Assembly (NCBI GenBank): GCA_040754615.1
Contig: JBFMBZ010000081.1
Coordinates: forward strand, 1 to 44,326
Length of the DNA: 44,326 bases
Direction of reading: 5' to 3'
Origin: Candidatus Omnitrophota bacterium
GTDB lineage: Bacteria > Omnitrophota > Gorgyraeia > Gygaellales > Profunditerraquicolaceae
The notes below the pieces were generated by a model that saw only the letters and a list, made by a program, of their open reading frames with translations, was not told where the DNA came from and made no database searches. Below are positions 24,001-42,000 of this stretch, in pieces. The translations under genes and the position numbers were made by a program. The first letter of the stretch is position 1. The number at the start of each line of letters is the position of its first letter.

Positions 24001-27000
24001 GAGCTGCTTTTCAACCGGCGAGCCGGCTTTCCCCTCTGCGTAGGGGGAGAATGAAATGTAGCGGGCCGCTGCGCAGAGATTCAGTTCCCACCAGCCACGG
24101 AAGGTAAACTGATTCCCTATAAATTCACGCAGCGACCCAAATTCTCCTGCAATATTATTCTCAATGCTGGCCGGAGAAGCGGAATTATTCAAACCCGCCC
24201 ATACCAAGACCATCGCAGTTTTTTGAAATGGAGACATATCATCTTCAAATACAGGCGTTTCTTGTAAAGTAACCCAGCCAAATCCTCTTTGAAGCAAAGC
24301 TATTCTTAAATCTTTCTTTGATATCCTAACCGCAGGAAGAAAAGGATGCTGATAGGAATAATCACAAGGATATTCTGTAATAAGCATTAACCCGTTTCTC
24401 TTCAGTAATGATTGGGAACTTACTAAATAAGATAAATCCAAAGAAACAAATCTTCCTTTTTGCTGCCAATATTCAAGCGCGCCCAAACATTCAGAGAATA
24501 ACACCAAATCAAATTGGCCGTTGGTTAACAGCGATTTTCTATATTTATGAATCTGCGTAGCATCTGCAGTTAAAGCGGAGATTCCTTTTCTTTTTAGGAT
24601 TTCAACGAAATCATTATCGATTTCAACTGCCTTAACTAAATGGCCTTCTTCTTTTAATACCTCCTCTAATAAGCCTCTTCCGGAGGCAACTGACAATATT
24701 AAAAGCCTTCTGCCTTTTGTTACATTTTCTATCTGAGCCAATAGATATTCCCGGTATGCCCCGCAAACTGATAATTTACTTAAAGCAGCGCTCTTATTCA
24801 TACTGCGAATCTTCTCTAAAATATTTCCAGTGGCATCTGGATCATTTATCGCAGAACTGGAATAAATATTTTGTCCTCGCTTAGCCTTACTTATGATTTG
24901 TTCTTCAGTAACCGGCGAAGCAGCTACGCCTTCATTAAGGAATGCCTCCAAGGCTACTTCAGGATAAATTTCAATCTCCGCAGAGCCGATATAATTGCTG
25001 ATTAACTTCACTCCCGGCATTCTTCTCCAAATCTCCAAATATTCATTTACCTGCACATATAATTTTAAGCTTGCATAATCGTTTTTAAGAAGATAGCTAA
25101 TCAACTGTTTATATAAGAGCTCCTCGTATTGCCTGTTTCTGTACTCTCTTCTCACAAATATCCAACTCACCTCTTTTTCTTCATAAGGACCAACGAGGAA
25201 CCCTCCGGCAAAATCTTTTGTCCTGTTATCAATTGCTACGGCTTGTATGTAGCTTTCTATTCCCGAAGGTATAATCATACAGGGCCACAAGGGATTCTCT
25301 AGATAGCATGCGTGTTCCAATGCTTCTAACTCCGGCCTGTCTTTTGCTTCCCTGATATCTATTCCGCTAAGGGCCCGGCTAAACTGGCGTAAATATTCTG
25401 CGGCAGTAATCCGTGCCTCCAATATACGGCTTAAACGCACGGCGTTTGCCTGATACTGCGCAAAATCACCCGGCCTTTGCCAATACACCTCTAAGGCCTT
25501 CATCATTGCCCGTAAATACGCTTCAGTTGTGCCGTCTTCCGGCGTAATGGTATTTCCTTCTCCGACCACATCATAATTTATTGGTATGCCCTGTGCCTGT
25601 AATAAACCTTCATTCCAGGGCGGGCTGAATTGTAAGCCGGCGCAGGCTCCGATATTTGCTTCTGTATATCCGGCAGCTTCGGTATTCTCAGCAGAATACT
25701 GAACCTGAACATCGGTTGCCGGCAATAAAGCCTTTTGCTGCTCTAAATTAAACCAACCCACTAACCTGAATACTCCCGGATAACCTTTCTTTGCCAGCCT
25801 CTTAGAAATGGCTTCCAAATGATTGTATAAATTATAGCTTTCTTGGGTCTCCTGCACTTTCCCGTAAATCACAACTTGTATTCCTGCCTTGACCAAATCC
25901 TCAATATCTGTTTCTGCAAACCTCACCTTTTCCTCTACGAGGCGGCCGGAATAAGAAACCACCGGCTTATTCGGGTCAAACCCTAACCTTTCTTTAGCCA
26001 CTCTCTTTACCGCCATTACGTGCTCTGCAGTTACATAATCATACTCTGCCTCAGGGAATAATTCTGATAATATTTGCCTGAATACCTTTGAAGTTGCCAG
26101 GCGGTCATCCCCGTTTGATACAGCGATAAGGTCCACATTAGGGTCGTATTTGTTTACTAAATCTACGTGCCTTGCCGCCACCCCGCCTCTCCAGTGGGCA
26201 GTGCGTAGCCCAGCACTGGTAAAATCTGTTACTCTCACACCATCATCGTTTGGATGCACAAACAATTTTTCAAATAGGCCATCAACCGGTATCTTGAACC
26301 TGTTTACTACCAAATCCCTTCCTTCTCTGTATTTAAAATACCCCCTGTTTCGGATGGTATGCGTAGTGTCCGCCAGCAAAGCGCCCTGCAATGCTATTAT
26401 CTCCCATTCTTTAAAGGCAAACATTACGCTTAAAGGAGCAAGTTGCGCATCGTTAATATGGATAACCGGAGGAAGCCACTCTTCGGGATGCGCGGAAAAT
26501 TCCTGCGCTTCTACCATGCTAATCAATTCCAGGGCGGCCCTTGAGAAAAACATAGTAAACTCTTCCATGGAAACGCGGTTATTCTGTGTATTGTAAGCAT
26601 AAAGCATATTGGTATAGTAAGCGCCTTCATCGCGCAAGAAATACCCTATAATTTCCGCAGGGGTTTTTCCTTCATAATCAATAACGCTGACTCTTTTCCC
26701 TTCTATGTCTATATCATATCTGGCAAGCTCTCTCATATCGGTTATGCCAAAGTTGGCGTAATTGAGCCTTTCTAACTGCCCCTGCTCATTACGGCCAATC
26801 ATATAGAAGGGCTCAATATGCCTTATTTCCAAATATCCCCCTGCCAATTCCTTCATTGCCGTCCCGTGATACTGCATTACTCTGCCTAATCCACCTGCCG
26901 GATTCCAGATCTCAGAGCTAATCTGCCAGAGCCTGCGGCCGATTAGCTTCGGAGCGTGCATTAACAGCCAGTCTGCGGGTATATTCCTGTCCAGCATTAA

Positions 27001-30000
27001 AAGAATTGCATCAATCAGCTCAAGCTTTCTAAGTTTGATATTTTCCGCCCTATTTAATAATGACACGATGCGCATATGCTCTTCTTTATTTAACAGGGCA
27101 ATTGCTTTTAAAACCGGATAACGCGCTTCTATGGGGTACCTGTAGCTTAATGTTTTAAAAGAATAATATTTGAGCAGCTTGATTAATCCGGGGTCGTCCT
27201 GGCTCCTGATTTCTGTCATTATCTCTTTCCAGCCCGGCAATGGCTTCTGTGTTAGCGCTGAAGCAGCCCTGCCCAAAGCAGAAGAATATAAATCAAGATA
27301 TTTCTTTGCCGGCGCATCCCAGGAAAAATCAGATGACATACCATTCCTTTGCATTACAACCCTTAATTCCCTGTTCTCAATAACCTGGAGAGCACCTCTT
27401 GTTGCCGCAAGCAGCGTCGGAGCATCAAAATCAATAAACTTAAACCCATTTACTCCGTGTTGGACAATCCCATCCAGGCCTCCGGTAGCGCGCACAACTG
27501 GAATTACGCCATAGAGCAAACACTTCAGCACATCCACATTGCAGGGCTCGTATTCAGAAGGTATCAATACTATATCTCCGCAGGAATACAGTTTACTGGC
27601 CAGGGTTTCGTTAAATGGCGTTTCTATATATATCCTTCCCGGATAAGCGTTCTTTAAATTCTCTAAGTCAGTGATAAACTTCCGATGGTAGTCCCGGCCA
27701 TCGCCTGTCCCCAGGAAAGCAAACTGGATATTTGTTCCGGATAATACTTCTTTTAAAACCGGCGGGATTAAATGCAGGCCCTTCTGCTCTACAATCCTTG
27801 AAATAACAACGATAAGCGTAGCCGTGGGGTCAATATTTAACTTTGTTTCTGCCTGGAAAGATTCTTTATTTTTGGGGCGCGCCTCACTAAAATTATCCAA
27901 ACCATACCTCACCGCTATAGAGGAATCAATCAAAGGATTCCACTTCCTGGTATCTATGCCGTTTCTGATGCCTACTAAATCATTCTCCCTGCTCAACAAA
28001 AGCTCCTGGAAACCATAACCCAGTTCAGTCCTCAGGATTTCCTTTGCGTATTCTTCGCTTACCGCAGTAAGCTTATGCGCGTAATTAAAGGCGGCTCTTA
28101 ACAAAGAGATAAATTGGCGGCCCTTGTCGTCTATATAATCTCTGAATTTATCCGGCGCAAGTCCCATTCCTGTCAAATACCAAAGCTCCTCAAGGAAATC
28201 TCCACGGTAACCTATATTATGAATTGTATGTATTGACCTGGTTTTCCTGAATAAGGGGTTTTGGGTTTGGTGCAGGTAAAGCGGGGCTAACGCTGTCTGC
28301 CATTCGTTGAGATGGATGATATCCGGGGATATTTCTAATGCATTGCATATCTCAAAAATGGAGCGCGGCAATATCACTGCTTCCTCAAACTGTTTCTGCT
28401 GTTCTTTTGTCCTGTATATATTTACAAAATGCTCGCCATCGTTTTCTATTAATATTACTTCCACGCCTCGGATGCTCTCTCTTGCAATACTGAATGTCCC
28501 TGTTTTGTTGCCAAGCGGTATATTTATATTAATGCCCGTGCTTCTTCCTGCCGTTACTCCTTCATATTTCGGCACTATCACATAGACTTTCTGGCCTAAA
28601 TCTACTAAGGCCGCGGATAACCCTGCGACTACGTCCCCTAAACCCGCCTCCTTAATAACCCCGCCCATTTCCGATGCTGCCAAGAAAATTTTGTGTTCCG
28701 GATATTCTATTGAGCTTGAAGCCTCGCGGGCTTTCTCCATAGCGCGCTGATAAACATTTTCATATTGAGGTATCCGCTGCGACCAATCTGGATTAAAGTT
28801 TATTACATAATTTAGGCACTCCTTAAATTTTGCCTCATCGTTAAAACGCATGCTGAAAAATTCTCTTGCTCTTTCATATGCTGCCCTTGCGCTCGCCATA
28901 GGGTCCCGGTCAAGCGGTGGAATAGCAAGAGCAGGGGTTCCATGGTTTTCCACGAAATCAATCAGCCCTCCTCTTTCCGAAACAATTACAATAACCCCTA
29001 ATGCTGCTAATTCCAGGTTAGCAATGCCTCCGGGCTCCTGCCTTGAGGGCATAAGGCTCAAGAATGAACCTGCGCCTATTTGTTTTGATAAGTGGTTATC
29101 GAATGTATTGGCAAACACCAGCTGGCCTTGATATCTTCTGCTTTCAACCAGGGTATTCAACCTGGCTACAAACTCTTCCCCTAATGTATCACCGGCTGTG
29201 CCAAGGATAGGAAGCTGAATCTTGGCATTTCTTACCCCCTCATGCTTGATATTTAATATCTCTTCTATTAAAGGAGGCCCACCCTGCCAGCGAGGAACAA
29301 ATAATAAATCCAGCCCTTTTTGCTTAACCAGGCGGCCTACAATACCCAACCCAACAGCATCAGGGTTAACTTCAAGCCCTAATTTTCTCTGTAGAGCAAG
29401 CATATTATCTATTGTCCATCCTAACGGATCATTCCCCATGTCAGGCCTAAACCCTTCTTTTTTGAGGGCAAGTAAATTCTCCGGCTTATGGTCCTTAAGA
29501 ACGATGCCGTTATAAACTCCGCCTAATTTCCCGCGCACTTCCCTTAACACTCCGTCTAAACCGCAACCACACTCAAGCGTAACCGCTTCTCTTAAATGTC
29601 CGTTACTTACAAAAACAATGCTGTCGGCATATATGAATGCTAATTTCATCAGGTTGTGCCTGCCTGCGATAGCCCCGCCCGGGAAAACCGACCAGAATTC
29701 CGCGCCAGTGTTATCCCTGGCATCCCTTAAACTCATTCTTAATTGGGTGAGCTTAAATAAATCCACCTCTACCTGGTCAAAGTAGTCTCCGTTATAAAGA
29801 TTTTCATATTTGCGTAAGACTCCGAGCTTAAGAAGATATAAAAAGAGCCTGTCCTGATAATACATCTTCATATACCCAGGGAAGACCCCCTGATATTCAA
29901 GGTTATGCGTGGTAAACAATGCTGCCGGCCTTACTCCCAGAGGCCATTTTTTATAACGGTAAAGTTCTTTTAGATAGGCAGGGCCAAGGCCTGTCTGCCA

Positions 30001-33000
30001 GTCATTAAAATGCAGGACATCAAACTGGATGCCTAATTTTTCCTGAATGATAAACGGTGCGCGTGACAATACTATTCCCTCAACATACCCGCCGAAAGAA
30101 TCCGGATGAGGCTGGCTGTAAAGTTTAACAAAAAGGTTTCCGCTCTCGTCATACAATAAAAAGACCGGGACGCCAAAGAAATCCTCTACATAAACGAGTT
30201 TAAAGGGGATGGTTCCCAGGCCGACAGGTATCTCTAAATTCTCCATAAGGACTGCTCCGTCATATGCTCTCAAGAATTCCTCTAAACTCCCGTAATTATG
30301 CTTTACATCCGCAGAGTGTAATGCTTTTAGGTTAAAAGAAGCGAAATCATGTTCTCCTAATACTCTGGGTAATTCCATTGTATAAAGCCCCTGCCCACCC
30401 CCCTTGCCGTCTACATGTTTTAACCTATTGCCTTTTTTGTCATTTAAAACCATCTCCATAGCGATAAAGCAGACGGCAATCTTGCCTGACTGCCTGGCCT
30501 TATTAATCCGCTCTATTATCCTGTTCTTTATCTTTTGATTTGTGTCAAGTTCTCTAAGGCCAGTTACCGGAGATGCCGAGCTGATGCGCGAAATGGTTAC
30601 CTCATCGGACTTACGGTATAGCCCGAATCTATCCTGCAAAGTCACTAATGCTGCCCGGGTAACCTCCACCTCGCCAAAGAATTCTGTGCGTAATCCTTGA
30701 GTAGCTTCGTATAGCTCTTTAAAATTATCCGGGCTGATAATATCTGTAATCCGGCCCAATGCAATATTGACTAAAGGAGTGCGCCTGCGTACGTCAGGGT
30801 AAGCCTCGGTGAGCCTTCTTTTTAATTCAAATATATTCTCATCGTAAACATGGCCCTCTACGAATAAACATCCGTCCGGCCCGAGATTCACCCCTTGGAA
30901 TATTATTCTTATCAGGCCGGTCCTTTTAAAGATTGTCGTTACCTTCTGGGACATTTCGTCATCTAGTTTCGGCGTAAACTCGGTTACCTGCCCAAAAGGA
31001 GTGTCATAAACAACAGCAAAGATTGTGCTGTGCAGCAAATCCCTGGGCACCGGATTAAGCGCACCGGATATCTTATTCATCATGTTGACGATGGCCGCCA
31101 TCTTATCAAGCATCGGGCCGGTTAAAACCGGGTCTTTAATAATCAAGGCTACGGCGTAATGGCCAGGATTCCTGAGAGGGTCAGGCGCTTTATTATTTAA
31201 AACCATTTCCCCGGTTTCCTTCCAGATAGAGGCGTAGGCATTCTCTAAGCTATACCTGTCTGTAACGGGCAGAAACCCGTTAATCGAAGAAGAGCAGGCT
31301 CCGGATTGCAGGTTTTCTCCTGCCTGTTTAATAATTTCGAAAGAGAGATGCATTGTAAAGTAATCCAGATGCTCAGTGATATAGCGCAAGGAAACATGCT
31401 CCACTTTGTAATATTCATCCGGAGGTGAAAGGTTATTATCGGCAAGCCATCCTGCGAGGCTCATTAATTCTGACGGGTCTTCTAATAGCGGCCAAATCGG
31501 CAAATCCCATAAATTCGGTCCTTTCCTCATAAGCCCCGCCATAGACACTATCTTTCCATCTGCTTTGATAGGCATGGCTATGCGGGCTAAGATATCTTCG
31601 GCCCTTTGGCCGAATAACAAGCCGTCTTTATTGGGGAGAATATCAAAAATGCCTTTAAATATTACTGCCCATTTAATCTTCCATTCGGGCTGTTCTCCTA
31701 CTCTTACCGGAGCAAAATTAACAAATTGATTCGCGCCTATAGACAATTTAACCCCTTCCGGGCTGGCCGGCACCAATGGCACCGTAAATACTGCAGAACC
31801 CTTCCCAATGCGTGAGCCGCTGGCAAGTTTAGATAAATAAATCTGAGCGCCTTCTTCTATATAACAGTCATCTCCTATTATCGTATGGTAGAAAATAGTG
31901 TTTTGGCGGACCGTTGAGTCTCCTTCTATAAACCCGCCCTGGATTAGCTCATCGGGACCGATTGCTTTCAGGATGATGTCTCCTTCAGTTAAAGAACGGG
32001 TGCTCCTCATCGCCGTGAAATAAGCCGTGTCGCTTCCGTAATCTGAATACATTGTATTTGGCCCTGCAACTTTAATCATATGTAATGGCGCCGGCGCGTA
32101 TGTCCTTAAGCCTTTCTGCACACGCTCCCAGTGCTGTGCATGGTAAGCAACAAAATCCTGGAGAGCCTCTCCTTCCAAAACCCTGCCAGCCAGTTTTTCT
32201 TTAAGGTATTGTGATTTGCTTTTCAGGGCTGCCGAGTACCAATCCGGAGAAAGATTTATCTGATATATAGGTAAAATGGCCTGCACCCTTCTTTCAATTT
32301 CAGCCGCCTCTTCCACTAAGCTTCTTAAAACTCCTTTATAGCGTGCAGGGTTAGAATCGCTCCATATTGTACTCGCGGTATTTGACATAATCTGGCGGCT
32401 ATATATTTTGTCGGAGCTAAAGCTGATTCCCCATTCTGCTTGATGTATTCTCATCTCGTCTTTAGAAGGCTTTTCTTGGAAAGCAATTATTTCATGGCCC
32501 TGCTCTCCCTTTGTCTGCCTTAATACAAACATACCTAAATTATTGGCTACTTCATCAATTGTGGCGGGGTTGCCAAAGAGGCTTATGCCGTCAAATACTT
32601 TTTCGGTCTCTGTAACCAAACACCCGTCTCCGTTAAATATCCCAATCCAGCCAAAGGGGATGCTCTCATTTAGTTTCCTTTGGAAGGTTTTTAGCTTGTT
32701 CATAAATAATGTGTGCTGATATATGCCGATGGAAACAATATCTATCAGGGTGAGCAGTTTTTTCCTTCTTTGCATCTCCTTTGCCAATCTGCCGTTCCCT
32801 AAATTGGCCATTATCGGCATGAGTACTTTTGAGGCTAAGCGTGCAGTAAATCTTGTGCCCAGCCCTCCGGCCTGTTTAAATACTACCCGCGCCTGCGCCA
32901 GCACTTCAACTATTTGCTCCCAATTCTCTAAAATCTGCGCTGCGGTAATATCTTCGGCGGGAATATCTGTGATGATGCCGTATTTTACCGCAATATCCCG

Positions 33001-36000
33001 GCAAATTTTAAGCATTCCTAAGGCAACCACGCCATTGTCTCCCACGTTATTCCTCTCGCCGAACTTTTCTTTATGCGCGGGGTTGACTACAAAAATATAA
33101 TTTACGTCATCGCGATAAACCACTCCCCTTAGCCTGTTCATCATAAGCTCAAAATACTGCGCCTGGCCTTCGTTCCAGCAGGTCCATACCTCGTAATCAT
33201 AGGAAGGCACCTTACTGCAGATAGCCTCATCCCAGGCAGGAAGCATAACCTCATAAAATGTGTGGTTTATTAAAATTATAGACTCTAAATTATCAAGTAA
33301 ATAATAAATCTTTTCAAGCCGCTCCCCGGCGTCATTTTGTAACCCGCTTAGAGAATTTAACTGATTATGCTTTTCCTTAAGCGGAACAAGATACTTCTTG
33401 ATAAAATCCCGGTAATTATAATTCTTGGCCTTTGACTCTGCTCTCCATAAATTCCATACATTGTTAATTAATTCGCTTAGCCTGCTTATTTCTTTGTCAA
33501 TATCTTCCTCCCCTTCAATCGGGCTTCCCGCGGACTCGAGATTAATAATTCTTGTTTCGCTGCGGTTAAGCCCAAATTCATCCTGGGTAGTAACCAACTT
33601 CGCATTAAAGACTTCTATCTCTCCTATTTCTTCTTCGATGAATTCTGTGACTTTTTGGAAAAGTGCTTTAAATTCCTGCGGCGTAACCTCCCGCACCAGC
33701 CTTGCCAATATTATAGAGGGATTGTGGACTCGCCTTCTTTCGTCAGGATACTCAGTTCTCAATCTTGACAGTAAGCCTATTGCCGCCTGTTCGTCTACGA
33801 ACCGGGCTTCTGCAAATACTTCCCCTCTCATAGTTAACCCTATGCCCATTAATCTGATTTTTATGGGCCCGACAGACTTCATTATCCGTGTAACTACCCT
33901 TGCCATTTCTTCGTTGCAATTTAACACCGATTCATCCACTTTCTCTAAGGGGATGCGATTAAGTATGCAAAACAAATTGCTATAGAGTTGCTCACGAGAA
34001 ACAGTTTCTAACGCATGGCTCCCGAGAGAAAGCACGCCGCTGATTGTCATTAATTTATCCACTATCTGTTTTTCCATTGTATCTTTATCAGCAATCAAGC
34101 TTATTGAATAACCGGGCGTATTCTTAAGGGGCTCTGGAACCCTACTCTCTGCTATCATATTCGCGGTTATCCTACGCACTGCTTCATAAGTAGGCCTTAT
34201 TATATAGGTCTCTCTATACCCGGGCACTGTTATTGTTTCGCCGGTTGCTGCGGCATCAGGGAATTCTCTCTTTTGCAGAATTTCTGCTTCCAAAGACAGG
34301 GTAGGCAAGGGCAGGTGGCTCTTGATTAATCTGACGTCGAGAGAAGGTTCCCGGGATAAGGCTGACTCAATGATAGCCATAAGCGCGCTTATCTGTGTAT
34401 TTGCGATAATGCCCCCTTTAAACACGCTACGTAAAGCCATGTAACAAATATTCTCTCTGATGCTTAAGGTAATCTGCGGAATTCCTTCTATATATAAACG
34501 GTTCTTCTTGGACTGTATGCGCTCTAAGTTGCCCACCAAATCAATCATTGCATTTTCTATTTTCTTTAATGCCACTTTTAATTCAGTCTCGGGTTTGAGC
34601 TTAAATTTCTCGTGCATATATTCAAGGAGGCCTTTCTGCTCAAGGCTTAATCCTATGCCTTCTATATCCACGTCTCTTAATAAAGTTGTGTCGCTATAAC
34701 GGCTTTTCAGTGAATTTATAAATATGGCGAGAATAATAAAGTTTACAATATTCTCTTTTAAAGGCTCAAACCTGGTCTCTGTTCCGGATTCCTGGCCAGT
34801 GGCTACTTCCACGAAGAGGGTCTTTGTAAACCAGGTATGCATACCAGCCAGGTTTGTAGGCTGGAGCCCGGGCTTGGCCTTATCCAGCTCCCAACTTTGC
34901 ATGCTAAACCTTTGCTGGCCAAGCAATTCATTCCTATAAAAACCTAACTTGTATGGTTCCTCCTTGCTCAGCCTATTAGGCATCCCTAAAAAGCTAAAGA
35001 CTTCAGAAATTGATAAATTGCTGCCTATATACAAATCCTGAATATAGCCCACAATATCCAGGAGATAATTGGCAGTATTGAATAAAGGAAAGTATGTTTC
35101 CACAGACCTGTTTGAAAGCGCTTTTAAGAATTCCGGGCTTAAGCCATTGGCAAAAGAAGGGTCGCCAAAAGGCACTATTGCAATCTCTTTGATTTGCTCT
35201 GGCAATTTATTGGCTTCTTCTGCGGTCAATCCGTCTTTTCTGGCAGAAGGGTCAAAAGGATTAAATAACCCCGCTTCATCCATCTGCCATCCCTCCAAAA
35301 GGCCTTTGTTCTGGCCAAATTCTCTTAGGCTTTCAGGTATAAAATCAGGCCGCAGCTTAACCGCAGTGCCTCCCCCCTGCCCTGCGGGTTTTTCTGCCAC
35401 CTCGTTAATCAGGTTCGCATCTGTAAGGTACATCATGGCTAATAATACCGGAGAAATATTCGCCGCGCGGTTATCTACGTTGGATATAAAATTATACCTG
35501 TAGCCCTCTTTTAACAAATCAAAGGCTGCCCCTGAATAGATTAAGTCCAGAAAGGCAGAATCATGCCCGTCAGGCCAGGATACATCCTCCCATTTTTTAT
35601 AGGGGTAAATACTCCTCAGGAATTCTCCAGTATAAAGATGGTAAAGCTGGCCCGTAGGGACACGGATTATTCTTATATCTGAAACATATTCGGTAGGATG
35701 CTCATAGTAATTCCTCTTTGTGCTGCTGGGATAATACCCTAACCGCACCAGCTCCTCTCTTATATCGGAGTCGGTAAGAAAACTCGTGAATATGACTACG
35801 GGTATATTTTTGTTTAAATAACCCTTAAGTTCGGAATTCACAAAATTTACCTGCGCCAGCGCTACCTCAATAATTGTCCTTACCCCGTCAATGGGCACGG
35901 AATATACACCCTTTGCTTTATCAATAGTAATCTTTTTACCGTCCGCAGTGCAGACTACTTCTGCATAGCGGGTGCCTTTTCCCCCCGCTGAAATTATATT

Positions 36001-39000
36001 TGCTGCGGATGTAACTAACGGCAAACCGATAGCATAAAGGGCTTCATACGATATAACTACCCCTCTTCCTCCCCCTGCTTCATCGCTCTTGGTCTTCCCT
36101 ATAGCGTCAAGCAGGTCTTCTATTTGCTTATCACAGGCACTTACTTTTTCTGCAGACAAGTTGGGGAAGGCTTTGCCCCTGGCCATTCTTAATTGCCAGC
36201 TTAATCCGCGCAATCTTCTAGTCGCTTCGTCTACGGTTATGTCTAAACAGGTAGTTTCTCCGGGTTTTGGTAAATACGCCGAATCCCCTGCCTGAGTTTG
36301 ATTGCCGCGTTCCCATTTATGCAGCGCATCCCAATTCTCTAAGAGGAAATTAAGCGGCAGGGGTTTTTTGTTTTCAGCTGCTTTTATATCCGCATCACTT
36401 AAGTTCTCTATGAGGCGCTGCCTGCGTTTTAAGTCATTAATCAGGAACCCTAAATCGCGAGGGCATCCGGTTTCAGAATCAATATCAACCCTGCCTGCGT
36501 AGGCAAGCATCTGAACGGCAATCTGATATAGCCCGCTGTTATAGGGTTCGTGTAAAATAATATATCCGAGATGGTAATTAATAAAATGCCTATGGAAAAG
36601 GGTGATTTCTGGCAAACTCATGCTGTATGCCTCCTGGCTTTCCAGAGACCAAAAGTCCATTTTCGCTAAATATGCCGCAACAGCAAGATGGCCTAAGCTG
36701 CCTAACTCCCCTAACCCGTGCATATAGGAAATAAACTTTGAAAAACGTGCCTTAATTAAGAATGCGCTAAGATGCTGCTCATTGATTCTTCCTTCAATGC
36801 TATAATCTAAGAAAACAAGCCGGTAAAGCTCCCTGGCAGTATGCGCAGGCGCGACTTTTTCTATCTCCTCTTCAAATGGGGCATAGAGAAAAGGACGCGG
36901 CCCCTGGCCTGCAATGCGGCCCTCTAATTCAAGATGGCGCTGTTCGTGCTTAAATCCTTCCAAAACAATCCTTATTAATTCTTCTTTGTTCTCCGGGCCA
37001 AGTCTCGGGTAGACTTTATTGAGCAGTTCTAAGTATAAGCTGGTCATATAAGCATAGCGCCTGCTGCGGCTGTATCTTAAAACCGTATCGGCTACCGAGC
37101 ATCTTTCCATGTAATTCAAAAGAATTACGTCAAACCAGTTGAAGAATTCTCCTTTATGCGCTTTTAGTGCGCTATAAAATTCTCCCTTCTCTGAAAGGCA
37201 GGGTATTTCTATGTCCGTTTCTGCGCGCGCGGTAAGAGGCTCATCGCTGAATAATGCCCGGGGATTACCCGCTTCTATGGCGTCGGTAAAGAGCATTTCC
37301 ACATACTCATCGCATTCTCTGTGCTCAACATTGGAAAGCGGCCCGCCTAACAAGCGTAGCGCCCCCTCAGGGCCTTTTTCTATGGAGCTTGAGGCGCTAG
37401 AAGGATACCTTCTGTCTTTCTTTGCCTCAACCCGGGAAACATACGCATTTAATTTCGCTATCTTTCCTATCAGGGTATCGCGGGCAGCAACTAAGGTTTT
37501 TGCCGGCTCTACTTTCAGGCCCGCACCGCTACTAATGTGCGCTATTATTGCCCTTCTTTTCAAATCTTTAGCCTCAAGCCTCCCCTTTAATTGAGAAAGC
37601 GTGATTTCCTCGCCATAAGGAGCAATCAGGTCTGTTAATACCCCGGCTTCTGTTTTGTAATTTTCAGGGTTCTCCTTAAGCGGCTCAAAACGGGTAGCCA
37701 TTATTTTAGCCTGCGCATCAGGGTCTTTTTTCTTGATTACCTCTCCTGCCACTACTTCTACAAAACAGGTATCAACAAGCCAGGTCTGGTCTCCGGCTAA
37801 GTTTGTAGACTGGAAAGCAGGATAGCGCTGGTCTACTTCAAAACATTGCATCGCCAGCCTCTTATTGTCCGCGTAATCGTACCTTAGCTGCGCCCTTAAC
37901 GATTCCTCTGTATTAAACCTGTTCATCAATATTTCTACCGCGTCTTCCGAATTAAATTTAGGGAATTGCTGTTGGATAAAGCCTACGAGGTCAAAGACAT
38001 AATTTGCAGTATTAAACAGGGGCTGATACGTATCAACGATTGCATTTAGCAGTTGCGTCAACTCATGGATATCTTTGGTTTCCTTTAATCCTTCTGTTTG
38101 CAATTTTTCAGGGCCGAATAATTTGGCGGCGATGCGTTTAACGGAATCATCCAGCCCTATTAACTCCTTTGACGCTAAAACTAAATCCCGGCCTTCTTTC
38201 TTCGCATCTTCCAACCGGTTTAATGTAGCGCCGAACATCAGCGTTGCGTCTGCCTGAAACCCTTCAATCAACCCTTTAGCGTAGCCGAAGTTTATGCATG
38301 GAGGCACATTGTCTTTTTTGAATTTAGCAGGCGCTCCGCCCTTCTGGCCTGCGGGCTTCTGGGCAATCTCGTTAATTAATGCCTTTCCGGTTAGGCCCAT
38401 GAGCGCAAGCAGGGCCGGCTCTACAGATGCAGCCCGATTATCAACATTAGAAACGAATAGATACCTATAGCCTCTTCTTACTAATTCCACCATCTGTCCG
38501 CTGACAATAGGCTCAACAAAACTTGAGTCATGGCCATCGGGCCAATAAACCTCCTCCTTCTTAAGTTCCGGCTGCATATTAATCAGGAAGTCTGCGGTAT
38601 GCTTATAAAGAAGGTGTGATTTATTATGCTTTATAATCCTTACTTCTGAATAATATTGGTCAGTGTGGGTGTAGAGATTATTATTTGCGATATCCCGTTC
38701 ATAGCCTATCCTCATCAAGTCAGCTCGGATATCCTCGTCTGTCAGATGGCTGGAATGTATTACTACGGGTATATTCTGCAGGAGGTAGCCCTTTGTGCGG
38801 TATTCCCTATTCTTAAAGGAAACCTGGGCAAGGGCGACTTCAAGGATAGAGCGCAATTTACCGTCTATCTCAATAAGGTAGATCCCTTTTGCGCGCTCGT
38901 CTATATATTTCCTGCCCTGTTCATCAAATAAAACCTTAGAATACCTCATTCCCCTGCCGCCGGCAGAAATAGTGACTACTGCCTTTGAGATATATTTCTT

Positions 39001-42000
39001 TAAGCCAAGTTCCTCTAACTCTTCGTAGCTAAATATCTCCCAGCTGCCATTTTTATCCTTGAAAACAGTAAATTTCCCCGGCAAAGGCAGGGCTATGGAA
39101 TCAATATCTACGGGATTATGCTTAATATATTCTTGGGCTTCCTGCCTGGAATTAAACTGTAAGCCCCTTGACCAGGGCTCGAGTTGGTCAAATGAGCCTA
39201 ACCTTATATTCTGGGCGGAAGTAAGGCCCTGCGCGCGGATAACCAAATGCTGCCTGATTAGCTCGCGGATAAAAGAGTAGGCATTATAATAATGCCTGGT
39301 GTCGGGGTCAAAATCCATCCCCCTTAAAGATACAAGCTTATCCAGCGCCGTTAAGAAAACCGAGGAATTAAATTCGGTATTACTGAACACGTATCCGAAA
39401 TGGAGTTGCGCAATGATTTTATTTATGTGTATATTGGTGCGGCTTGATTCAAGGATGGTTTCAGCCTGAAGGATATGCCAATGCAGCCTTTCTTCCCGCG
39501 AAGGTACATTGACATCTTCATAAGCGTTGATATAGGAGATGAAAGAAAACTTGCCATTTTTATTTTTTATCGCTTTAGATAGGAATCTTTTAATATTGGG
39601 TTCTTCACCCGTGATTTTCCAGGCATAAATTACCCTGAATAATTCTCTAACAGCAAACGAAGGGGCTATTTTATCTATTTCAACCTCTATCATAGGAGGA
39701 GAGCGCGACTTTTCATTGGTAATATGGGCATTCTCATGCAGGATCCCCTCCAGAATAATTGATAAGAGCTGCCTTTTTTCTTCTTCATCAAGAGAGGCAT
39801 AAACCTCTGCTAATTTGTCAAAATAAATCCCGACCATGTATGTAACCATGCGCTGCCTGCTGGGGTGCATCACAGTATCCAGCAGCTCATTTATATTTGC
39901 ATCCAATAGAACTACATCCAAATCGCAAATCTTGCTTTGGGATTTAAGGCGCTCTATCTGGAAAACCAGATCTTTATAAAACTGGCTTTGCGCACCAATC
40001 TTCTGTATGGCAGACCATTTAGCAGTCCGGGGGATATCCCTTAACAGGCTCTTTACCCTGTCCTCTTTTATTAATTCTTCAATACGGTGGTTAATAAAAT
40101 CATGCTCATCTCCGCTTAGCCATCCTCCCTGTAGGCGTATAGCGCCGCCTACCGGGCTGGAGGATATGGCTTTTAGCCTTCTTTCTGCTTTGCTGCGGCT
40201 GAAATAAGTTTCCTTGCCAAATACCCTGATTAATCCGTTTTTCATTTCTTTAAGCGGGTGCATAGTCAAAAGGCCAAGCCCGTTAATCCAGGTTCTCTGC
40301 CCGTCTTTTTCAACAATAAATTTAAATTCATGCCCCCTTGCGTCGGGCTCAAGTTGCGCTGCCGGCACAATAACTGCGTATCTGCCGGGAACTATTTCTT
40401 CAGTAACTAAGGCATTGTGCTCCCAATCAGTAAAGTCAGCCGCAAGATATACCTTTGCCTCCTCCTTAGCCCTACAATGGAAAAGCATCCCCTCTTCTAT
40501 CTCAGAATTTGCCCTGAATCTCAAAAGCGCTTTATAAAGCGGGTTAATACTTATACCGGTTAAATCTTCAGGATAAATCTCTTCTCCCAAGGCAGCCAAG
40601 GCTTCTTCAAAGACTCTGTTTTCCAGCTCCCCTAATACGTCTTCGCTTATCCCTAAAATATCCAACGCATCTTTGCGCGAAGAAATTCCAAGCTTACGTA
40701 ATAAATTATACTGGGCTTCACTTACAATAAGCAGCGCATCATTATAATAGATAGGATCCTCCGTATAGTATTGGTGCAATTTTCCGTTTCTGGAGATAAG
40801 GTAACCGTATGACTGCACTCCGGATATTACAAAAACATGCCACTGTATGCGTTCAGTGGGCAATATCACAAAAACATAGTGCCCATAAGGCGGCAATTTT
40901 TCTATGTCCATCCCCGGGAAATTTCCCGCCCTTGCCCATAAATAATCATTCGTTACGCTGGTCACCGGGAAATTTAAGCGCGCATTCTTGCCTTTTCTGG
41001 AATTGAGGGTTTCTTTACTTTTCTCGCAAAACAGGCTTGCTATGCCGGCATAACCGATATTTCTTAAAACCAAACCCACGCCCTCGCATTTGATTTTGCG
41101 CTCTTTATAATCAACATAATCCATCCACCATTCATACACTGCGAAGCCCTGCCTGCTGTCATAGGCAACCAACTTATACATCTGAGCGCCCATAATAGGG
41201 TTATTCACTAATATTTTTTCTTGTAGTTTTTTCTGATCGAGCGCCAAAGTTAAGATTAATTCATTTTCTTCTCCAACTTCCCTGCATAACCAGTGCCATT
41301 CTGAACTCACAAAATGCCCCATCTCCAGCATGATTCTCTCTCCGCTTAGCTGGTTAGTCAGAGTAATTTTCTCCCCCTTCTCCCACTGTCTATCAAAAGA
41401 ACGCTTGCCTATCGGACTGCCGGCCTCTTTAGCATTTATCCCAATCAAAGTAAGCAGGCTTGACTCATGTTCATCCATGGTGCCTGTATGCAAGCTCTGG
41501 ACCAATCTTTCTTTATGATTATAGCAAGATGCAATAATAGTAGAACCGTACAAAGCCCATTCAAATTCTTCTCTGCTAAGGAAGCTGCGATAATAACTTT
41601 CTCCGGTAGAAAGGTCCGTTACCCGGATCATGCCGTCTTCCCTCCTGGTATCTTTGTAAAGCCGGTAATAAAAATCATCTGTAGATTTACTCACGATGAA
41701 TATAAATCCCCATGGCCTTACTACTCTTTGAATCTCTGCTATGATTTTCTTTAATTTCCCGACACTAAAATAATGCACTCCCAGGCGTATATATACAGCG
41801 TCAAAGGAATTATCTTCAAAAGGCAGTCTCTGTGCCATATCAATGGCCTGCGCGCTGATATCAATCCCCTGCTTTTTAGCCTGGTTAAGGACGAATTCTG
41901 CCTTCTCCCTGGTTTTGTCTGAGGCAACCACCTTAAACCCTTCTCTTGCTAAAAACAGCTCATCCGCCCCTTCGCCGCTGGCAAGAGATAATATGTCGTT

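What the first reader, a model, noticed from the sequence alone, without database searches (positions are those of the whole stretch)
24925..40460. An alpha-glucan/glycogen pathway fused on one polypeptide
A contiguous 15-kb stretch of the ORF contains the following modules:
- a CBM48-like glycogen-binding module (40265-40460)
- two UDP-sugar-pyrophosphorylase-like modules (37650-39000 and 34740-36010)
- a GlgC/fucokinase-like nucleotidyltransferase (31700-32900)
- two glycogen-synthase modules (28723-30564 and 27268-28707)
- an alpha-glucan-phosphorylase-like GT-B module (25341-27252)

Further downstream in the same ORF are hexokinase (6226-7527) and an IMPase/FBPase-like module (7543-8454). 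In ordinary bacteria these are separate glg/gal genes. A covalent fusion of sugar activation, polymerisation, binding and phosphorolysis would be a new architecture. It suggests substrate channelling or assembly of a storage-glucan or surface-glycan factory.
Basis: partly seen in the sequence, partly recalled or inferred. Interest (0 to 1): 0.7.

Follow-up and report, generated by a model that had tools for sequence, protein, structure and literature searches.

The report
Glucan-synthesis block in giant Omnitrophota gene
The fused sugar-activation and glycogen-synthase modules are real, but they are one stretch of a giant (over 14,775 amino acids) multi-enzyme gene of a kind already described in the tiny, probably predatory Omnitrophota bacteria, so this is a new example rather than a new architecture.

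Summary
The whole 44.3-kb window is one stop-free reading frame on the minus strand. It encodes 14,775 aa and is open at both ends.

Module checks:
- Confirmed by profile and structure searches: two UDP-glucose-pyrophosphorylase modules, one canonical GlgA, one divergent GlgA-like module, hexokinase and an IMPase-like module.
- The "GlgC/fucokinase-like" module is only weakly supported. It has a GGxGTR loop and a left-handed beta-helix, but scores below Pfam's cut-off.
- The "phosphorylase-like" module is a third, divergent GT5-like GT-B. It has no GT35 profile hit and no PLP lysine.
- The CBM48 call is inconclusive: two independent sub-threshold hints only.
- No phosphoglucomutase, branching-enzyme catalytic domain or phosphorylase is in the window. 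The "pathway" is activation plus polymerisation, not a full glg set.

The same ORF also carries a fused four-subunit PFOR, methyltransferases, HAD phosphatases, DnaJ, TPR/HEAT repeats and RelA/SpoT.

The closest homologues (40-53% identity) lie in Omnitrophota and Elusimicrobia giant ORFs, and module order is shuffled between them. Two preprints already report starch-synthase/GT1 "sugar modules" in Omnitrophota giant proteins.

The verdict is a new member of a known kind.

One new side observation: a conserved S-G-S-P-V/I motif occurs 29 times against 2.5 expected. It lies only between domains and may mark linkers or processing sites.

The parts
1..44325 (-). Single uninterrupted ORF of 14,775 codons, open at both ends. 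Residue i corresponds to window coordinates 44325-3(i-1) down to 44323-3(i-1).
   Evidence: 0 stops in this frame, against 455-1189 in the other five; no Rfam family, tRNA or tandem repeat.
40240..40518 (-). Candidate CBM48-like beta-sandwich (residues 1270-1362). Unproven.
   Evidence: GlgB N-terminal profile positions 23-97 at E=0.052. AF2 single-sequence model is all-beta with pLDDT 57; top Foldseek hits are human GBE1 at E about 0.08, not significant. Searches gave nothing.
38986..40161 (-). Unknown ~400-aa domain 'U1N', copy 1 (residues 1389-1780). It precedes UDPGP-1 and contains HENAH (HExxH).
   Evidence: duplicated with the UDPGP module; the same domain precedes UDPGP in P0011, P0014, P0054 and P0146; no PDB or Pfam match; these are the only two HExxH motifs in the ORF.
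37606..38988 (-). UDP-glucose-pyrophosphorylase-type module 1 (residues 1780-2240).
   Evidence: PF01704 at 47.1-47.5 bits (cut-off 22). PDB UGPases at about 1e-5; motifs GGRGMRY, SNVDNRAA, KPAGQKGG, FNTANY and RFEPLK.
36016..37398 (-). U1N-type domain, copy 2 (residues 2310-2770), containing HEQRH.
34636..36018 (-). UDP-glucose-pyrophosphorylase-type module 2 (residues 2770-3230). It is 36-44% identical to module 1 in pairwise segments.
   Evidence: PF01704 at 50.8-51.1 bits..
33457..34341 (-). Unknown ~290-aa repeated module, copy a (residues 3329-3623).
   Evidence: 32-34% identical to residues 4311-4610.
31396..32928 (-). Sugar-nucleotidyltransferase-like module with a left-handed beta-helix (residues 3800-4310).
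   Evidence: PF07959 at 5.4e-5 and 22.8 bits, below the cut-off of 34; LbH_EIF2B at 0.0032; Hexapep at 0.036. QAGGLGTRF loop; homologous module upstream of GT5a in L010; no PDB hit.
30496..31395 (-). Unknown ~290-aa repeated module, copy b (residues 4311-4610). It immediately precedes GT5a.
28708..30582 (-). GT5a: divergent glycogen-synthase-like GT-B of ~620 aa (residues 4582-5206). This is a lineage-specific module family.
   Evidence: PF08323 at 4.9e-24. TIGR02095 at 173.7 bits, below the cut-off; 40-53% identical modules in Omnitrophota and Elusimicrobia large ORFs; motifs GKGGGQG, HFNDWQ, TTHNLEYQ, GRLVKQKG and SRQEPGG.
27256..28707 (-). GT5b: canonical GlgA-type glycogen/starch synthase (residues 5207-5690).
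   Evidence: TIGR02095 at 366.9 bits, above the cut-off of 328.45; aligned end to end with E. coli GS; K15, H161, R300, K305 and E377 are kept and D137 is Glu.
25336..27168 (-). GT5c: third GT-B module (residues 5720-6330).
   Evidence: 257 cluster representatives, all within 250-7335-aa proteins; family profile scores 8.5e-8 against GBSS and 0.2-0.5 against phosphorylases. AF2 pLDDT 85.7, pTM 0.90. SS-IV at 2.7e-19 with TMt 0.78; GlgP at 1.6e-17 with TMt 0.49.
24910..24930 (-). Junction motif (GVAASPVTE, residue 6469) that closes the glucan block. Equivalent motifs lie at residues 1389 (window 40150-40170) and 4584 (window 30565-30585).
7552..8466 (-). IMPase-family module (residues 11954-12258). 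Its metal-binding motif is DPLSGT instead of DPIDGT.
   Evidence: PF00459 at 64.9 bits..
6223..7539 (-). Hexokinase module (residues 12263-12701), flanked on both sides by GSP[VI] junctions.
   Evidence: PF00349 at 5e-59 and PF03727 at 7e-58; human HK1 at 1e-136..

Best explanation
The finding is a ~5,200-residue block inside a giant multi-enzyme protein of more than 14,775 aa. The protein comes from an Omnitrophota-type bacterium. It belongs to the already described 'Archaeovorin / multi-enzyme metabolic cluster' kind of giant gene.

Shown:
- In N-to-C order the block contains a possible CBM48-like beta domain and two duplicated [unknown 400-aa domain + UDP-glucose-pyrophosphorylase] units.
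- These are followed by a nucleotidyltransferase with a beta-helix, then three tandem GT5-type GT-B glycosyltransferases.
- The middle glycosyltransferase is a bona fide GlgA.
- The catalytic signatures of the UDPGP, GT5a, GT5b and hexokinase modules are intact.

Inferred:
- The modules act on the cytoplasmic side. They, and their neighbours PFOR, DnaJ, SAM-methyltransferases and RelA/SpoT, need UTP/ATP, NDP-sugars, Fe-S clusters/TPP/CoA or DnaK.
- They convert hexose phosphates to NDP-glucose and polymerise it into an alpha-1,4-glucan.
- The two divergent GT-B modules probably prime, extend or decorate that glycan.
- Modules are strung together by short S-G-S-P-V/I junctions. They work either as tethered neighbours or after being cut apart.

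The block is a recurrent but freely shuffled 'sugar module' of these giants. It is not a complete glycogen operon in one chain.
For: - Single ORF.
- Domain inventory.
- GT5b passes the glgA cut-off and keeps K15, H161, R300, K305 and E377. The roles of these residues come from my knowledge of the published E. coli GS mutagenesis.
- GT5a keeps the same motifs, which are invariant across 6 homologues.
- UDPGP motifs are kept in both copies.
- Hexokinase motifs are kept.
- The DnaJ HPD motif, the PorD 2x CxxCxxCxxxCP motifs and the PorB GDG...NN motif are kept.
- Omnitrophota affinity: the best homologues are Omnitrophota MAG proteins at 46-53% identity. In Omnitrophota loci the frame stays open over the whole +-10 kb.
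- The UDPGP unit and GT5-like modules co-occur in other large proteins, in differing order.
- Literature: GT5/GT1 domains are common in Omnitrophota giants. A sugar-metabolism co-occurrence module and a multi-enzyme class have been described.
- Junction motif.
Against: - No activity, expression or localisation data exist for this sequence.
- Substrate specificity of the UDPGP and NTP-transferase modules and of GT5a/GT5c is unknown. In the GT5c family the Glu aligned with GlgA E377 is not invariant.
- Module order is not conserved in relatives, which argues against obligatory channelling.
- One strong hydrophobic helix (residues ~11606-11628) would put hexokinase, IMPase and RelA/SpoT on the other side of a membrane if it spans one.
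- Published predictions place many giant-protein domains outside the cell.
- Both ends of the gene, and the rest of the genome, are unseen.
Confidence: 0.6

Rival explanations
1. Bacterial polyprotein. The giant ORF is translated once and then cut at the conserved S-G-S-P-V/I junctions into free enzymes (UDPGP units, GlgA, hexokinase and others). The 'fusion' would then be a gene-expression device rather than a working megaprotein.
For: - [SGA]SP[VIAL] occurs 29 times against 2.5 expected.
- SGSP is the most over-represented tetrapeptide: 12 against 0.17, P = 1.5e-18.
- All 29 sites lie outside domain envelopes, P about 1e-6, and often 7-50 residues from a domain edge.
- The central Ser uses both the TCN and AGY codon families, which points to conservation at the protein level.
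- The motif flanks the homologous GT5a module in distant relatives: L017, L001 and L023/L024.
- West-Roberts et al. propose cleavage by C39/S8 peptidase domains but had no cleavage-site information.
- A conserved HExxH sits in the unknown domain before each UDPGP.
Against: - No peptidase domain was detected in the window.
- The motif is missing at some obvious junctions (GT5a|GT5b, GT5b|GT5c, UDPGP unit 1|2), absent from the last 2,000 residues, and absent from many relatives.
- Ser/Gly/Pro-rich stretches are also ordinary flexible linkers.
- TCG and CCG codons are enriched at the motif, so some nucleotide-level bias exists.
Confidence: 0.2
2. The block builds a glycan other than storage glycogen, such as a surface or capsular polysaccharide or protein glycosylation. 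The two lineage-specific GT-B modules and the non-GlgC nucleotidyltransferases would supply different sugars or linkages.
For: - GT5a and GT5c fall far below the glgA cut-off.
- GT5c lacks an invariant E377 equivalent.
- The activating enzymes are UDPGP-type and fucose/mannose-PPase-like rather than GlgC.
- Methyltransferases and a NAGPA-like domain are in the same ORF.
- West-Roberts et al. list glycosylation of extracellular proteins among possible roles.
Against: - GT5b is a full-scoring ADP-glucose-type GlgA.
- The nearest structural matches of GT5c are starch/glycogen synthases and glycogen phosphorylases, all alpha-1,4-glucan enzymes.
- The nearest PDB matches of the UDPGP modules are UDP-glucose pyrophosphorylases.
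Confidence: 0.2
3. The modules are displayed outside the cell or delivered into prey. There they would remodel prey cell-wall glycans or hijack prey metabolism, as proposed for Archaeovorins.
For: - Omnitrophota giant proteins are reported as mostly membrane-anchored or secreted and are linked to predation.
- A hydrophobic helix lies at residues 11606-11628.
Against: - Every identifiable module here needs cytoplasmic cofactors: UTP/ATP, NDP-sugar, SAM, TPP/CoA/Fe-S clusters, or DnaK for the HPD J-domain.
- Only one TM-like segment occurs in 14,775 residues.
- No adhesin, dockerin or glycoside-hydrolase domains are in the window.
- Delivery into a prey cytoplasm is not excluded, but nothing here supports it.
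Confidence: 0.1
4. Artefact or dead sequence: a chimeric assembly or a non-functional ORF.
For: The source could not be found in GTDB representative genomes or JGI metagenomes, so there is no independent copy.
Against: - 14,775 codons without a stop, while the other frames have hundreds.
- Uniform composition and strand skew.
- Catalytic motifs are conserved in many modules.
- Internal duplicates have diverged to 25-45% identity and there are no nucleotide repeats that would cause mis-assembly.
- Homologous modules sit in equally open frames in many independent MAGs.
Confidence: 0.02

Closest known systems
Omnitrophota giant proteins: 'Archaeovorins' (West-Roberts et al. 2023, bioRxiv 10.1101/2023.11.21.568195) and the 'multi-enzyme metabolic cluster' class (bioRxiv 10.64898/2026.06.07.730766)
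   Same: - ORF far above 10,000 aa.
- Many unrelated enzyme domains tile it.
- It carries GT5 starch-synthase plus GT1 domains, methyltransferases, HAD, HEAT/TPR and hexokinase.
- Modules are divergent, duplicated and poorly conserved in order.
- Homologues are in Omnitrophota MAGs.
   Different: - The window shows no SecA, C39/S8 peptidase, NUDIX, glycoside-hydrolase, PGM or dockerin domains, and only one TM-like helix. Both ends of the gene are missing, however.
- UDPGP modules, a fused four-subunit PFOR, and the SGSP junction motif are not mentioned in either preprint.
Bacterial glycogen synthase GlgA (CAZy GT5; TIGR02095)
   Same: GT5b aligns end to end with E. coli GlgA and keeps the catalytic residues. 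GT5a keeps the same motifs.
   Different: - It is embedded in a giant chain rather than being a ~480-aa protein in a glg operon.
- In GT5b the N-terminal KTGGL motif reads KEAGL, and D137 is Glu.
- GT5a has about 140 extra residues and scores below the family cut-off.
Alpha-glucan phosphorylase (CAZy GT35)
   Same: GT5c's predicted GT-B fold matches glycogen phosphorylases at Foldseek E about 1e-17. The motif TEAAGYTEAN resembles the GT35 EASGTSNMK region (the motif comparison is from my own knowledge).
   Different: - No GT35 profile hit.
- No Lys at the PLP position.
- TM-score normalised by the phosphorylase length is only about 0.49, against 0.65-0.78 for GT5 synthases.
- Profile E-value is 0.2-0.5 against phosphorylases and 8.5e-8 against starch synthase.
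Medium-sized (2-4.6 kaa) GT5a-containing multidomain proteins of Elusimicrobia and Omnitrophota (for example P0003, and loci L008 and L012)
   Same: The same ~620-aa GT5a module at 40-44% identity.
   Different: They are far shorter proteins with different neighbouring modules.
Eukaryotic and viral multi-enzyme chains (AROM, CAD, fatty-acid synthase; viral polyproteins). This is an analogy only, from general knowledge.
   Same: Several consecutive enzymes are encoded in one chain. A conserved junction motif is reminiscent of polyprotein cleavage sites.
   Different: There is no homology. The modules here do not form one closed pathway, and their order is not conserved.

Membership tests
Omnitrophota giant multi-enzyme proteins | Uninterrupted ORF of more than 10,000 aa | tested here: met
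   at least 14,775 aa with no stop, open at both ends.
Omnitrophota giant multi-enzyme proteins | Omnitrophota origin | tested here: inconclusive
   The best homologues of GT5a and GT5c are Omnitrophota MAG proteins at 46-53% identity. The source genome itself was not found, and no marker gene is in the window.
Omnitrophota giant multi-enzyme proteins | Many distinct Pfam families tile the chain without one dominating, including the PF08323 + PF00534 sugar module | tested here: met
   about 25 distinct domain types; PF08323 occurs three times, with PF00534.
Omnitrophota giant multi-enzyme proteins | Numerous TM helices, a signal peptide, and SecA-like or peptidase domains | tested here: inconclusive
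   A Kyte-Doolittle scan finds one strong hydrophobic segment. No SecA or peptidase Pfam hit. The N- and C-termini lie outside the window.
GT5 glycogen/starch synthase (GlgA, TIGR02095) | Score above the curated family cut-off | tested here: met
   GT5b scores 366.9 bits against 328.45. GT5a scores 173.7 and GT5c 40.8; these two do not meet it.
GT5 glycogen/starch synthase (GlgA, TIGR02095) | Catalytic residues K15, D137, H161, R300, K305 and E377 (E. coli numbering; their roles are from my knowledge of the literature) | tested here: met
   alignment of GT5b: all are kept except D137, which is Glu. In GT5a the equivalent motifs are invariant in 6 homologues.
GT35 alpha-glucan phosphorylase | PF00343 or TIGR02094 profile match | tested here: not met
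   no such hit for residues 5690-6340; phosphorylases score only E = 0.2-0.5.
GT35 alpha-glucan phosphorylase | PLP-binding lysine in the EASGTxNMK motif | tested here: not met
   the motif reads TEAAGYTEAN with no Lys. The reference motif is from my own knowledge.
UDPGP (PF01704) UTP-glucose-1-phosphate uridylyltransferase | Profile above the gathering score and conserved nucleotide-binding/catalytic motifs | tested here: met
   47.1 and 51.1 bits against a cut-off of 22, though only profile positions about 64-236 of 413 align; both copies have GGxGxRY, SNVDNRAA, KGG, FNTANY and RFEPLK.
GlgC / NTP_transferase (ADP-glucose pyrophosphorylase) | PF00483 or GlgC profile match | tested here: not met
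   no hit. The only signals are PF07959 at 22.8 bits (below the cut-off of 34), weak LbH hits, and a GGLGTRF loop.
CBM48 glycogen-binding module | PF02922/PF16561 match, or a confident beta-sandwich model matching CBM48 structures | tested here: inconclusive
   No Pfam or PDB hit. GlgB N-terminal region at E = 0.052. Model pLDDT is 57, and the top Foldseek hits, GBE1 at E = 0.08, are not significant.
Hexokinase (PF00349 + PF03727) | Both domains above the cut-off and the catalytic Asp / glucose-binding motifs present | tested here: met
   199.9 and 196.2 bits; 1e-136 to human HK1. LGGSNLR, NNDTTGT, GTGQN, ESGGF and EEKMVSG (reference motifs are from my own knowledge).
Complete glycogen pathway on one chain (kinase, PGM, NDP-Glc PPase, synthase, branching enzyme, phosphorylase) | All steps present | tested here: not met
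   the window has no PGM (PF02878-80), no GH13 branching enzyme and no GT35. The rest of the ORF is unseen.

The most novel reading that the evidence does not exclude
The giant ORF is a bacterial polyprotein or 'beads-on-a-string' assembly whose modules are delimited by a dedicated, conserved S-G-S-P-V/I junction signal. That signal might be read by an embedded HExxH domain or by a peptidase domain elsewhere in the gene.

The glucan block would then be released, or hinged, as discrete enzymes. The motif would give the first concrete handle on where Omnitrophota giant proteins are cut.
Probability: 0.15. Interest if true: 0.8.

Novelty: new member of a known kind. Interest (0 to 1): 0.45.

Why it matters
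Giant genes take up a large share of the tiny genomes of Omnitrophota. Their function, and whether they act as one chain or are cut up, are open questions.

This window is a clean example densely covered by recognisable enzyme domains:
- Catalytic motifs are intact in the synthase, pyrophosphorylase, kinase and PFOR modules.
- That argues these giants carry working central-metabolism enzymes, not only adhesins or wall-degrading domains.

For the fused glycogen pathway itself the result is sobering. It is real as a fusion, but incomplete, shuffled between relatives, and already reported in kind.

The most useful by-product is the junction motif:
- It allows an objective parsing of the chain into modules.
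- It gives a testable prediction for proteomics, namely peptide termini at SGSP|V/I.

Tried and rejected
- Source and close relatives. A protein-pattern scan of GTDB genomes with the GT5b region found nothing. An exact 33-mer scan and a protein scan of JGI metagenomes also found nothing.
- Homologues of the CBM48-like segment. The word-index search found none. A local phmmer search against all fetched loci and proteins found none. PDB phmmer returned only an antibody chain at E = 1.8.
- Single-sequence AF2 of that segment gave a low-confidence model, so its fold matches are only hints.
- NTP-transferase module against PDB sequences: nothing relevant.
- Unknown U1N domain. A profile search against PDB, Pfam on all members, the word-index search with the alignment and a local HMM search added nothing beyond the four members already known.
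- BLAST of the whole ORF against itself reported only the identity hit. Tiling into 400-aa pieces was needed to reveal the internal duplications.
- Rejected: the GT35 phosphorylase assignment for residues 5690-6340.
- Rejected: the reading that this is a dedicated glycogen protein.
- Rejected: a DNA-level repeat as the origin of the junction motif. The codons differ, including both Ser codon families, and no tandem repeats exist.

Full report
**The sequence**

The window is a single open reading frame. On the minus strand one frame has no stop codon in 14,775 codons. The other five frames have 455 to 1,189 stops. The frame is open at both window ends, so the gene is longer than 44.3 kb. Base composition and strand skews are uniform along it. 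It contains no Rfam family, tRNA or tandem DNA repeat. Residue i corresponds to window coordinates 44325-3(i-1) down to 44323-3(i-1).

Pfam, NCBIfam and PDB sequence searches on overlapping pieces confirm most of the list at the stated coordinates.

- **UDPGP modules.** Both exceed the PF01704 cut-off, at 47.1 and 51.1 bits against 22. Both keep the nucleotide-loop and catalytic motifs.
- **GT5b.** The module at window 27256-28707 is a canonical GlgA. It scores 366.9 bits on TIGR02095, above the 328.45 cut-off. It aligns end to end with E. coli glycogen synthase at 1e-54. K15, H161, R300, K305 and E377 are kept and D137 is Glu. The roles of these residues are from my knowledge of the mutagenesis literature.
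- **GT5a.** The module at window 28708-30582 is a longer, divergent GS-like module. It scores 173.7 bits, below the cut-off. The same motifs are invariant among six homologues.
- **Hexokinase.** The match to human HK1 is 1e-136.
- **IMPase-family module.** PF00459 scores 64.9 bits. The IMPase motif DPIDGT reads DPLSGT here.

Three claims need correction.

- **The 'GlgC/fucokinase-like' module is only weakly supported.**
  - PF07959 scores 22.8 bits against a cut-off of 34.
  - There are weak beta-helix hits and a GGLGTRF loop.
  - No PDB sequence hit was found.
- **The 'alpha-glucan-phosphorylase-like' module has no GT35 hit.**
  - It gives weak GT5/glgA hits.
  - It belongs to a family with 257 cluster representatives, all inside 250-7,335-aa proteins.
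  - A profile of that family scores 8.5e-8 against granule-bound starch synthase and 0.2-0.5 against phosphorylases.
  - An AF2 model with an alignment (pLDDT 85.7, pTM 0.90) matches starch synthase IV best, at 2.7e-19 with target-normalised TM 0.78.
  - E. coli glycogen phosphorylase follows at 1.6e-17, but with TM 0.49.
  - The position of the PLP lysine is not Lys.
  - It is therefore a third, divergent GT5-like GT-B, here called GT5c.
- **The CBM48 call cannot be settled.**
  - No Pfam hit, PDB hit or homologue was found.
  - A GlgB N-terminal match reaches E = 0.052.
  - A low-confidence all-beta model (pLDDT 57) has human branching enzyme as its top Foldseek hits, at a non-significant E of about 0.08.
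  - These are two independent hints, not proof.

**What else is in the chain**

- The same ORF encodes a NAGPA-like domain, three or four SAM-methyltransferase domains and two HAD phosphatases.
- It also encodes TPR and HEAT repeats, a J-domain with HPD, and a RelA/SpoT-like region.
- It carries a complete pyruvate:ferredoxin oxidoreductase fused in the order PorD-PorB-PorC-PorA, with both ferredoxin cysteine motifs and the TPP motif intact.
- About 60% of the chain has no family assignment.
- Tiling the protein against itself shows old internal duplications:
  - a ~950-aa unit made of an unknown 400-aa domain plus UDPGP (38% identity overall; 25-44% in pairwise segments);
  - a ~290-aa unknown module that precedes both the nucleotidyltransferase and GT5a;
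  - GT5a against GT5b;
  - two more duplications downstream.
- A hydropathy scan finds one strong TM-like segment, at residues 11606-11628.
- No phosphoglucomutase, GH13 branching enzyme or phosphorylase is present in the window.

**Relatives**

- The best database homologues of GT5a are partial proteins of Candidatus Omnitrophica/Omnitrophota MAGs at 47-49% identity, with an Elusimicrobia protein next.
- A profile scan of GTDB genomes returned 351 relatives. The top ~24 are Omnitrophota and Elusimicrobia at 30-53% identity.
- In the Omnitrophota loci the frame around the match is usually open across the whole fetched +-10 kb. In Elusimicrobia the proteins are about 2-4.6 kaa.
- Neighbouring modules differ from locus to locus. 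Only scattered pairs recur: the nucleotidyltransferase upstream in L010, GT5c downstream in L013 and a UDPGP unit upstream in L018.
- Among GT5c-family proteins, four combine GT5c with the [unknown domain + UDPGP] unit, in different orders. One also includes GT5a. Others carry ROK kinase or methyltransferase domains.
- Sugar activation plus GT5-type transfer is therefore a recurring, shuffled combination. It is not a fixed array.
- The source organism itself is not in the GTDB representatives or JGI metagenomes searched.

**Comparison with what is known**

- Giant ORFs are a recognised trait of Omnitrophota (Seymour et al. 2023, PMC10066038).
- West-Roberts et al. 2023 define 'Archaeovorins'. 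[quoted passage not shown]
- A 2026 preprint describes a 'multi-enzyme metabolic cluster' class.
  - It reports a sugar-metabolism co-occurrence module: PF08323 in 153 long proteins, PF00534 in 127, plus PGM and ROK kinase.
  - It reports a giant with nine hexokinase copies.
- The fused architecture is therefore not new in kind.
- Neither preprint mentions UDPGP, PFOR, linkers or cleavage motifs.

**How it most likely works**

Shown:
- One frame encodes intact-looking NDP-sugar-forming modules directly upstream of three GT5-type transferases.
- One of these transferases is a bona fide GlgA.
- A hexokinase lies 6,000 residues downstream.

Inferred:
- Every recognisable module needs cytoplasmic cofactors: UTP/ATP, NDP-sugars, SAM, TPP/CoA/Fe-S clusters or DnaK. 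This part of the protein therefore most likely faces the cytoplasm.
- There the block would make NDP-glucose and alpha-1,4-glucan.
- The two lineage-specific GT-B modules probably prime, extend or modify the polymer.

Obligatory substrate channelling is unlikely. The order is not conserved and the pathway is not closed within the window. I put 0.6 on this overall reading. I put about 0.9 on 'Omnitrophota-type giant multi-enzyme gene' and about 0.5 on 'product is an alpha-1,4-glucan'.

**A side observation worth recording**

- The tetrapeptide pattern [SGA]SP[VIAL] occurs 29 times against 2.5 +- 1.6 in shuffles.
- In an unbiased k-mer scan GSP is the most enriched tripeptide. SGSP, GSPV, AGSP and GSPI are the four most enriched tetrapeptides. 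SGSP occurs 12 times against 0.17 expected, P = 1.5e-18.
- All 29 sites lie outside domain envelopes (P about 1e-6). Many lie 7-50 residues from a domain edge. They bracket hexokinase, the IMPase module, both HAD domains, the PorDB and PorCA halves, and the whole glucan block at residues 1389, 4584 and 6469.
- The central serine uses both the TCN and AGY codon families, so the conservation is at the protein level. TCG and CCG are nevertheless enriched.
- The motif also flanks the homologous GT5a module in some distant relatives: both sides in L017, one side in L001 and L023/L024. It is absent in others.
- It may be a linker signature or a processing site. West-Roberts et al. explicitly lacked cleavage-site information.
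- The only two HExxH motifs in the ORF sit at equivalent positions of the two unknown domains that precede the UDPGP modules. They are kept in two of four homologues, with HDDMH in a third. This lead is weak.

**Verdict**

It is a real fusion, but not a complete pathway, not a phosphorylase, and not a new architecture.
- This is a new, well-annotatable member of a known but unexplained kind of gene.
- Interest is moderate. The junction motif is the element most likely to repay follow-up.

Noticed in passing
window 6211-43743, minus strand (29 sites; e.g. 6211-6222, 7528-7539, 8455-8466, 24910-24930, 30565-30585, 40150-40170): A conserved junction motif, about S-G-S-P-V/I, occurs 29 times against 2.5 expected. 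SGSP is the most over-represented tetrapeptide (P = 1.5e-18). It is always between domains and also flanks the homologous GT5a module in relatives L017, L001 and L023/L024. It could be a linker signature or a processing site.
   Followed up: partly
window 18493-21597, minus strand (residues 7577-8611): A complete pyruvate:ferredoxin oxidoreductase is fused in the order PorD-PorB-PorC-PorA inside the giant ORF. The ferredoxin Cys motifs and the TPP motif are intact (PorA 440 bits, PorB 325 bits). An SGSP-type junction lies between PorB and PorC.
   Followed up: partly
window 39724-39738 and 36934-36948, minus strand (residues 1530-1534 and 2460-2464): The only two HExxH motifs in the 14,775-aa ORF lie at equivalent positions of the duplicated unknown ~400-aa domain that precedes each UDPGP module. 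The motif is kept in homologues P0054 and P0146, is HDDMH in P0014 and is lost in P0011. No Pfam or PDB match was found, so a metallopeptidase-like site is possible but unproven.
   Followed up: partly
window 9442-9510, minus strand (residues 11606-11628): This is the single strong hydrophobic, TM-like helix in the window (Kyte-Doolittle score 2.83). It lies between the DnaJ/HEAT region and the IMPase, hexokinase and RelA/SpoT modules. If it spans a membrane, ATP-dependent enzymes would sit on both sides.
   Followed up: no
window 33457-34341 / 30496-31395; 13603-14727 / 9892-10968; 18145-18498 / 9547-9921 (minus strand): There are three pairs of diverged internal duplications of unknown modules (32-46% identity), beyond the UDPGP unit and GT5a/GT5b. 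There are no nucleotide-level tandem repeats.
   Followed up: partly
window 14674-14727 and 8473-8526, minus strand (residues 9867-9884 and 11934-11951): An 18-residue stretch, AVGPYPGSVEKAK(V/I)FFEE, is 94% identical at two distant places. Each copy lies just upstream of a junction: one reads GLSSSSLIV, the other KSGSPVGSF.
   Followed up: no
window 8170-8187; 13306-13320; 220-1155 (minus strand): Some modules look catalytically altered. The IMPase motif reads DPLSGT (second Asp lost). HAD-2 reads DVAGT (DxDxT with the second Asp lost). The RelA/SpoT hydrolase 'HD' reads HK, while the synthetase motifs are partly kept.
   Followed up: no
loci L008, L012, L013 (Elusimicrobia) and L004-L024 (Omnitrophota): The ~620-aa GT5a module family is shared between Omnitrophota giant ORFs and 2-4.6-kaa Elusimicrobia proteins. 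The GT5c family has 257 cluster representatives, none seen as a stand-alone enzyme.
   Followed up: partly
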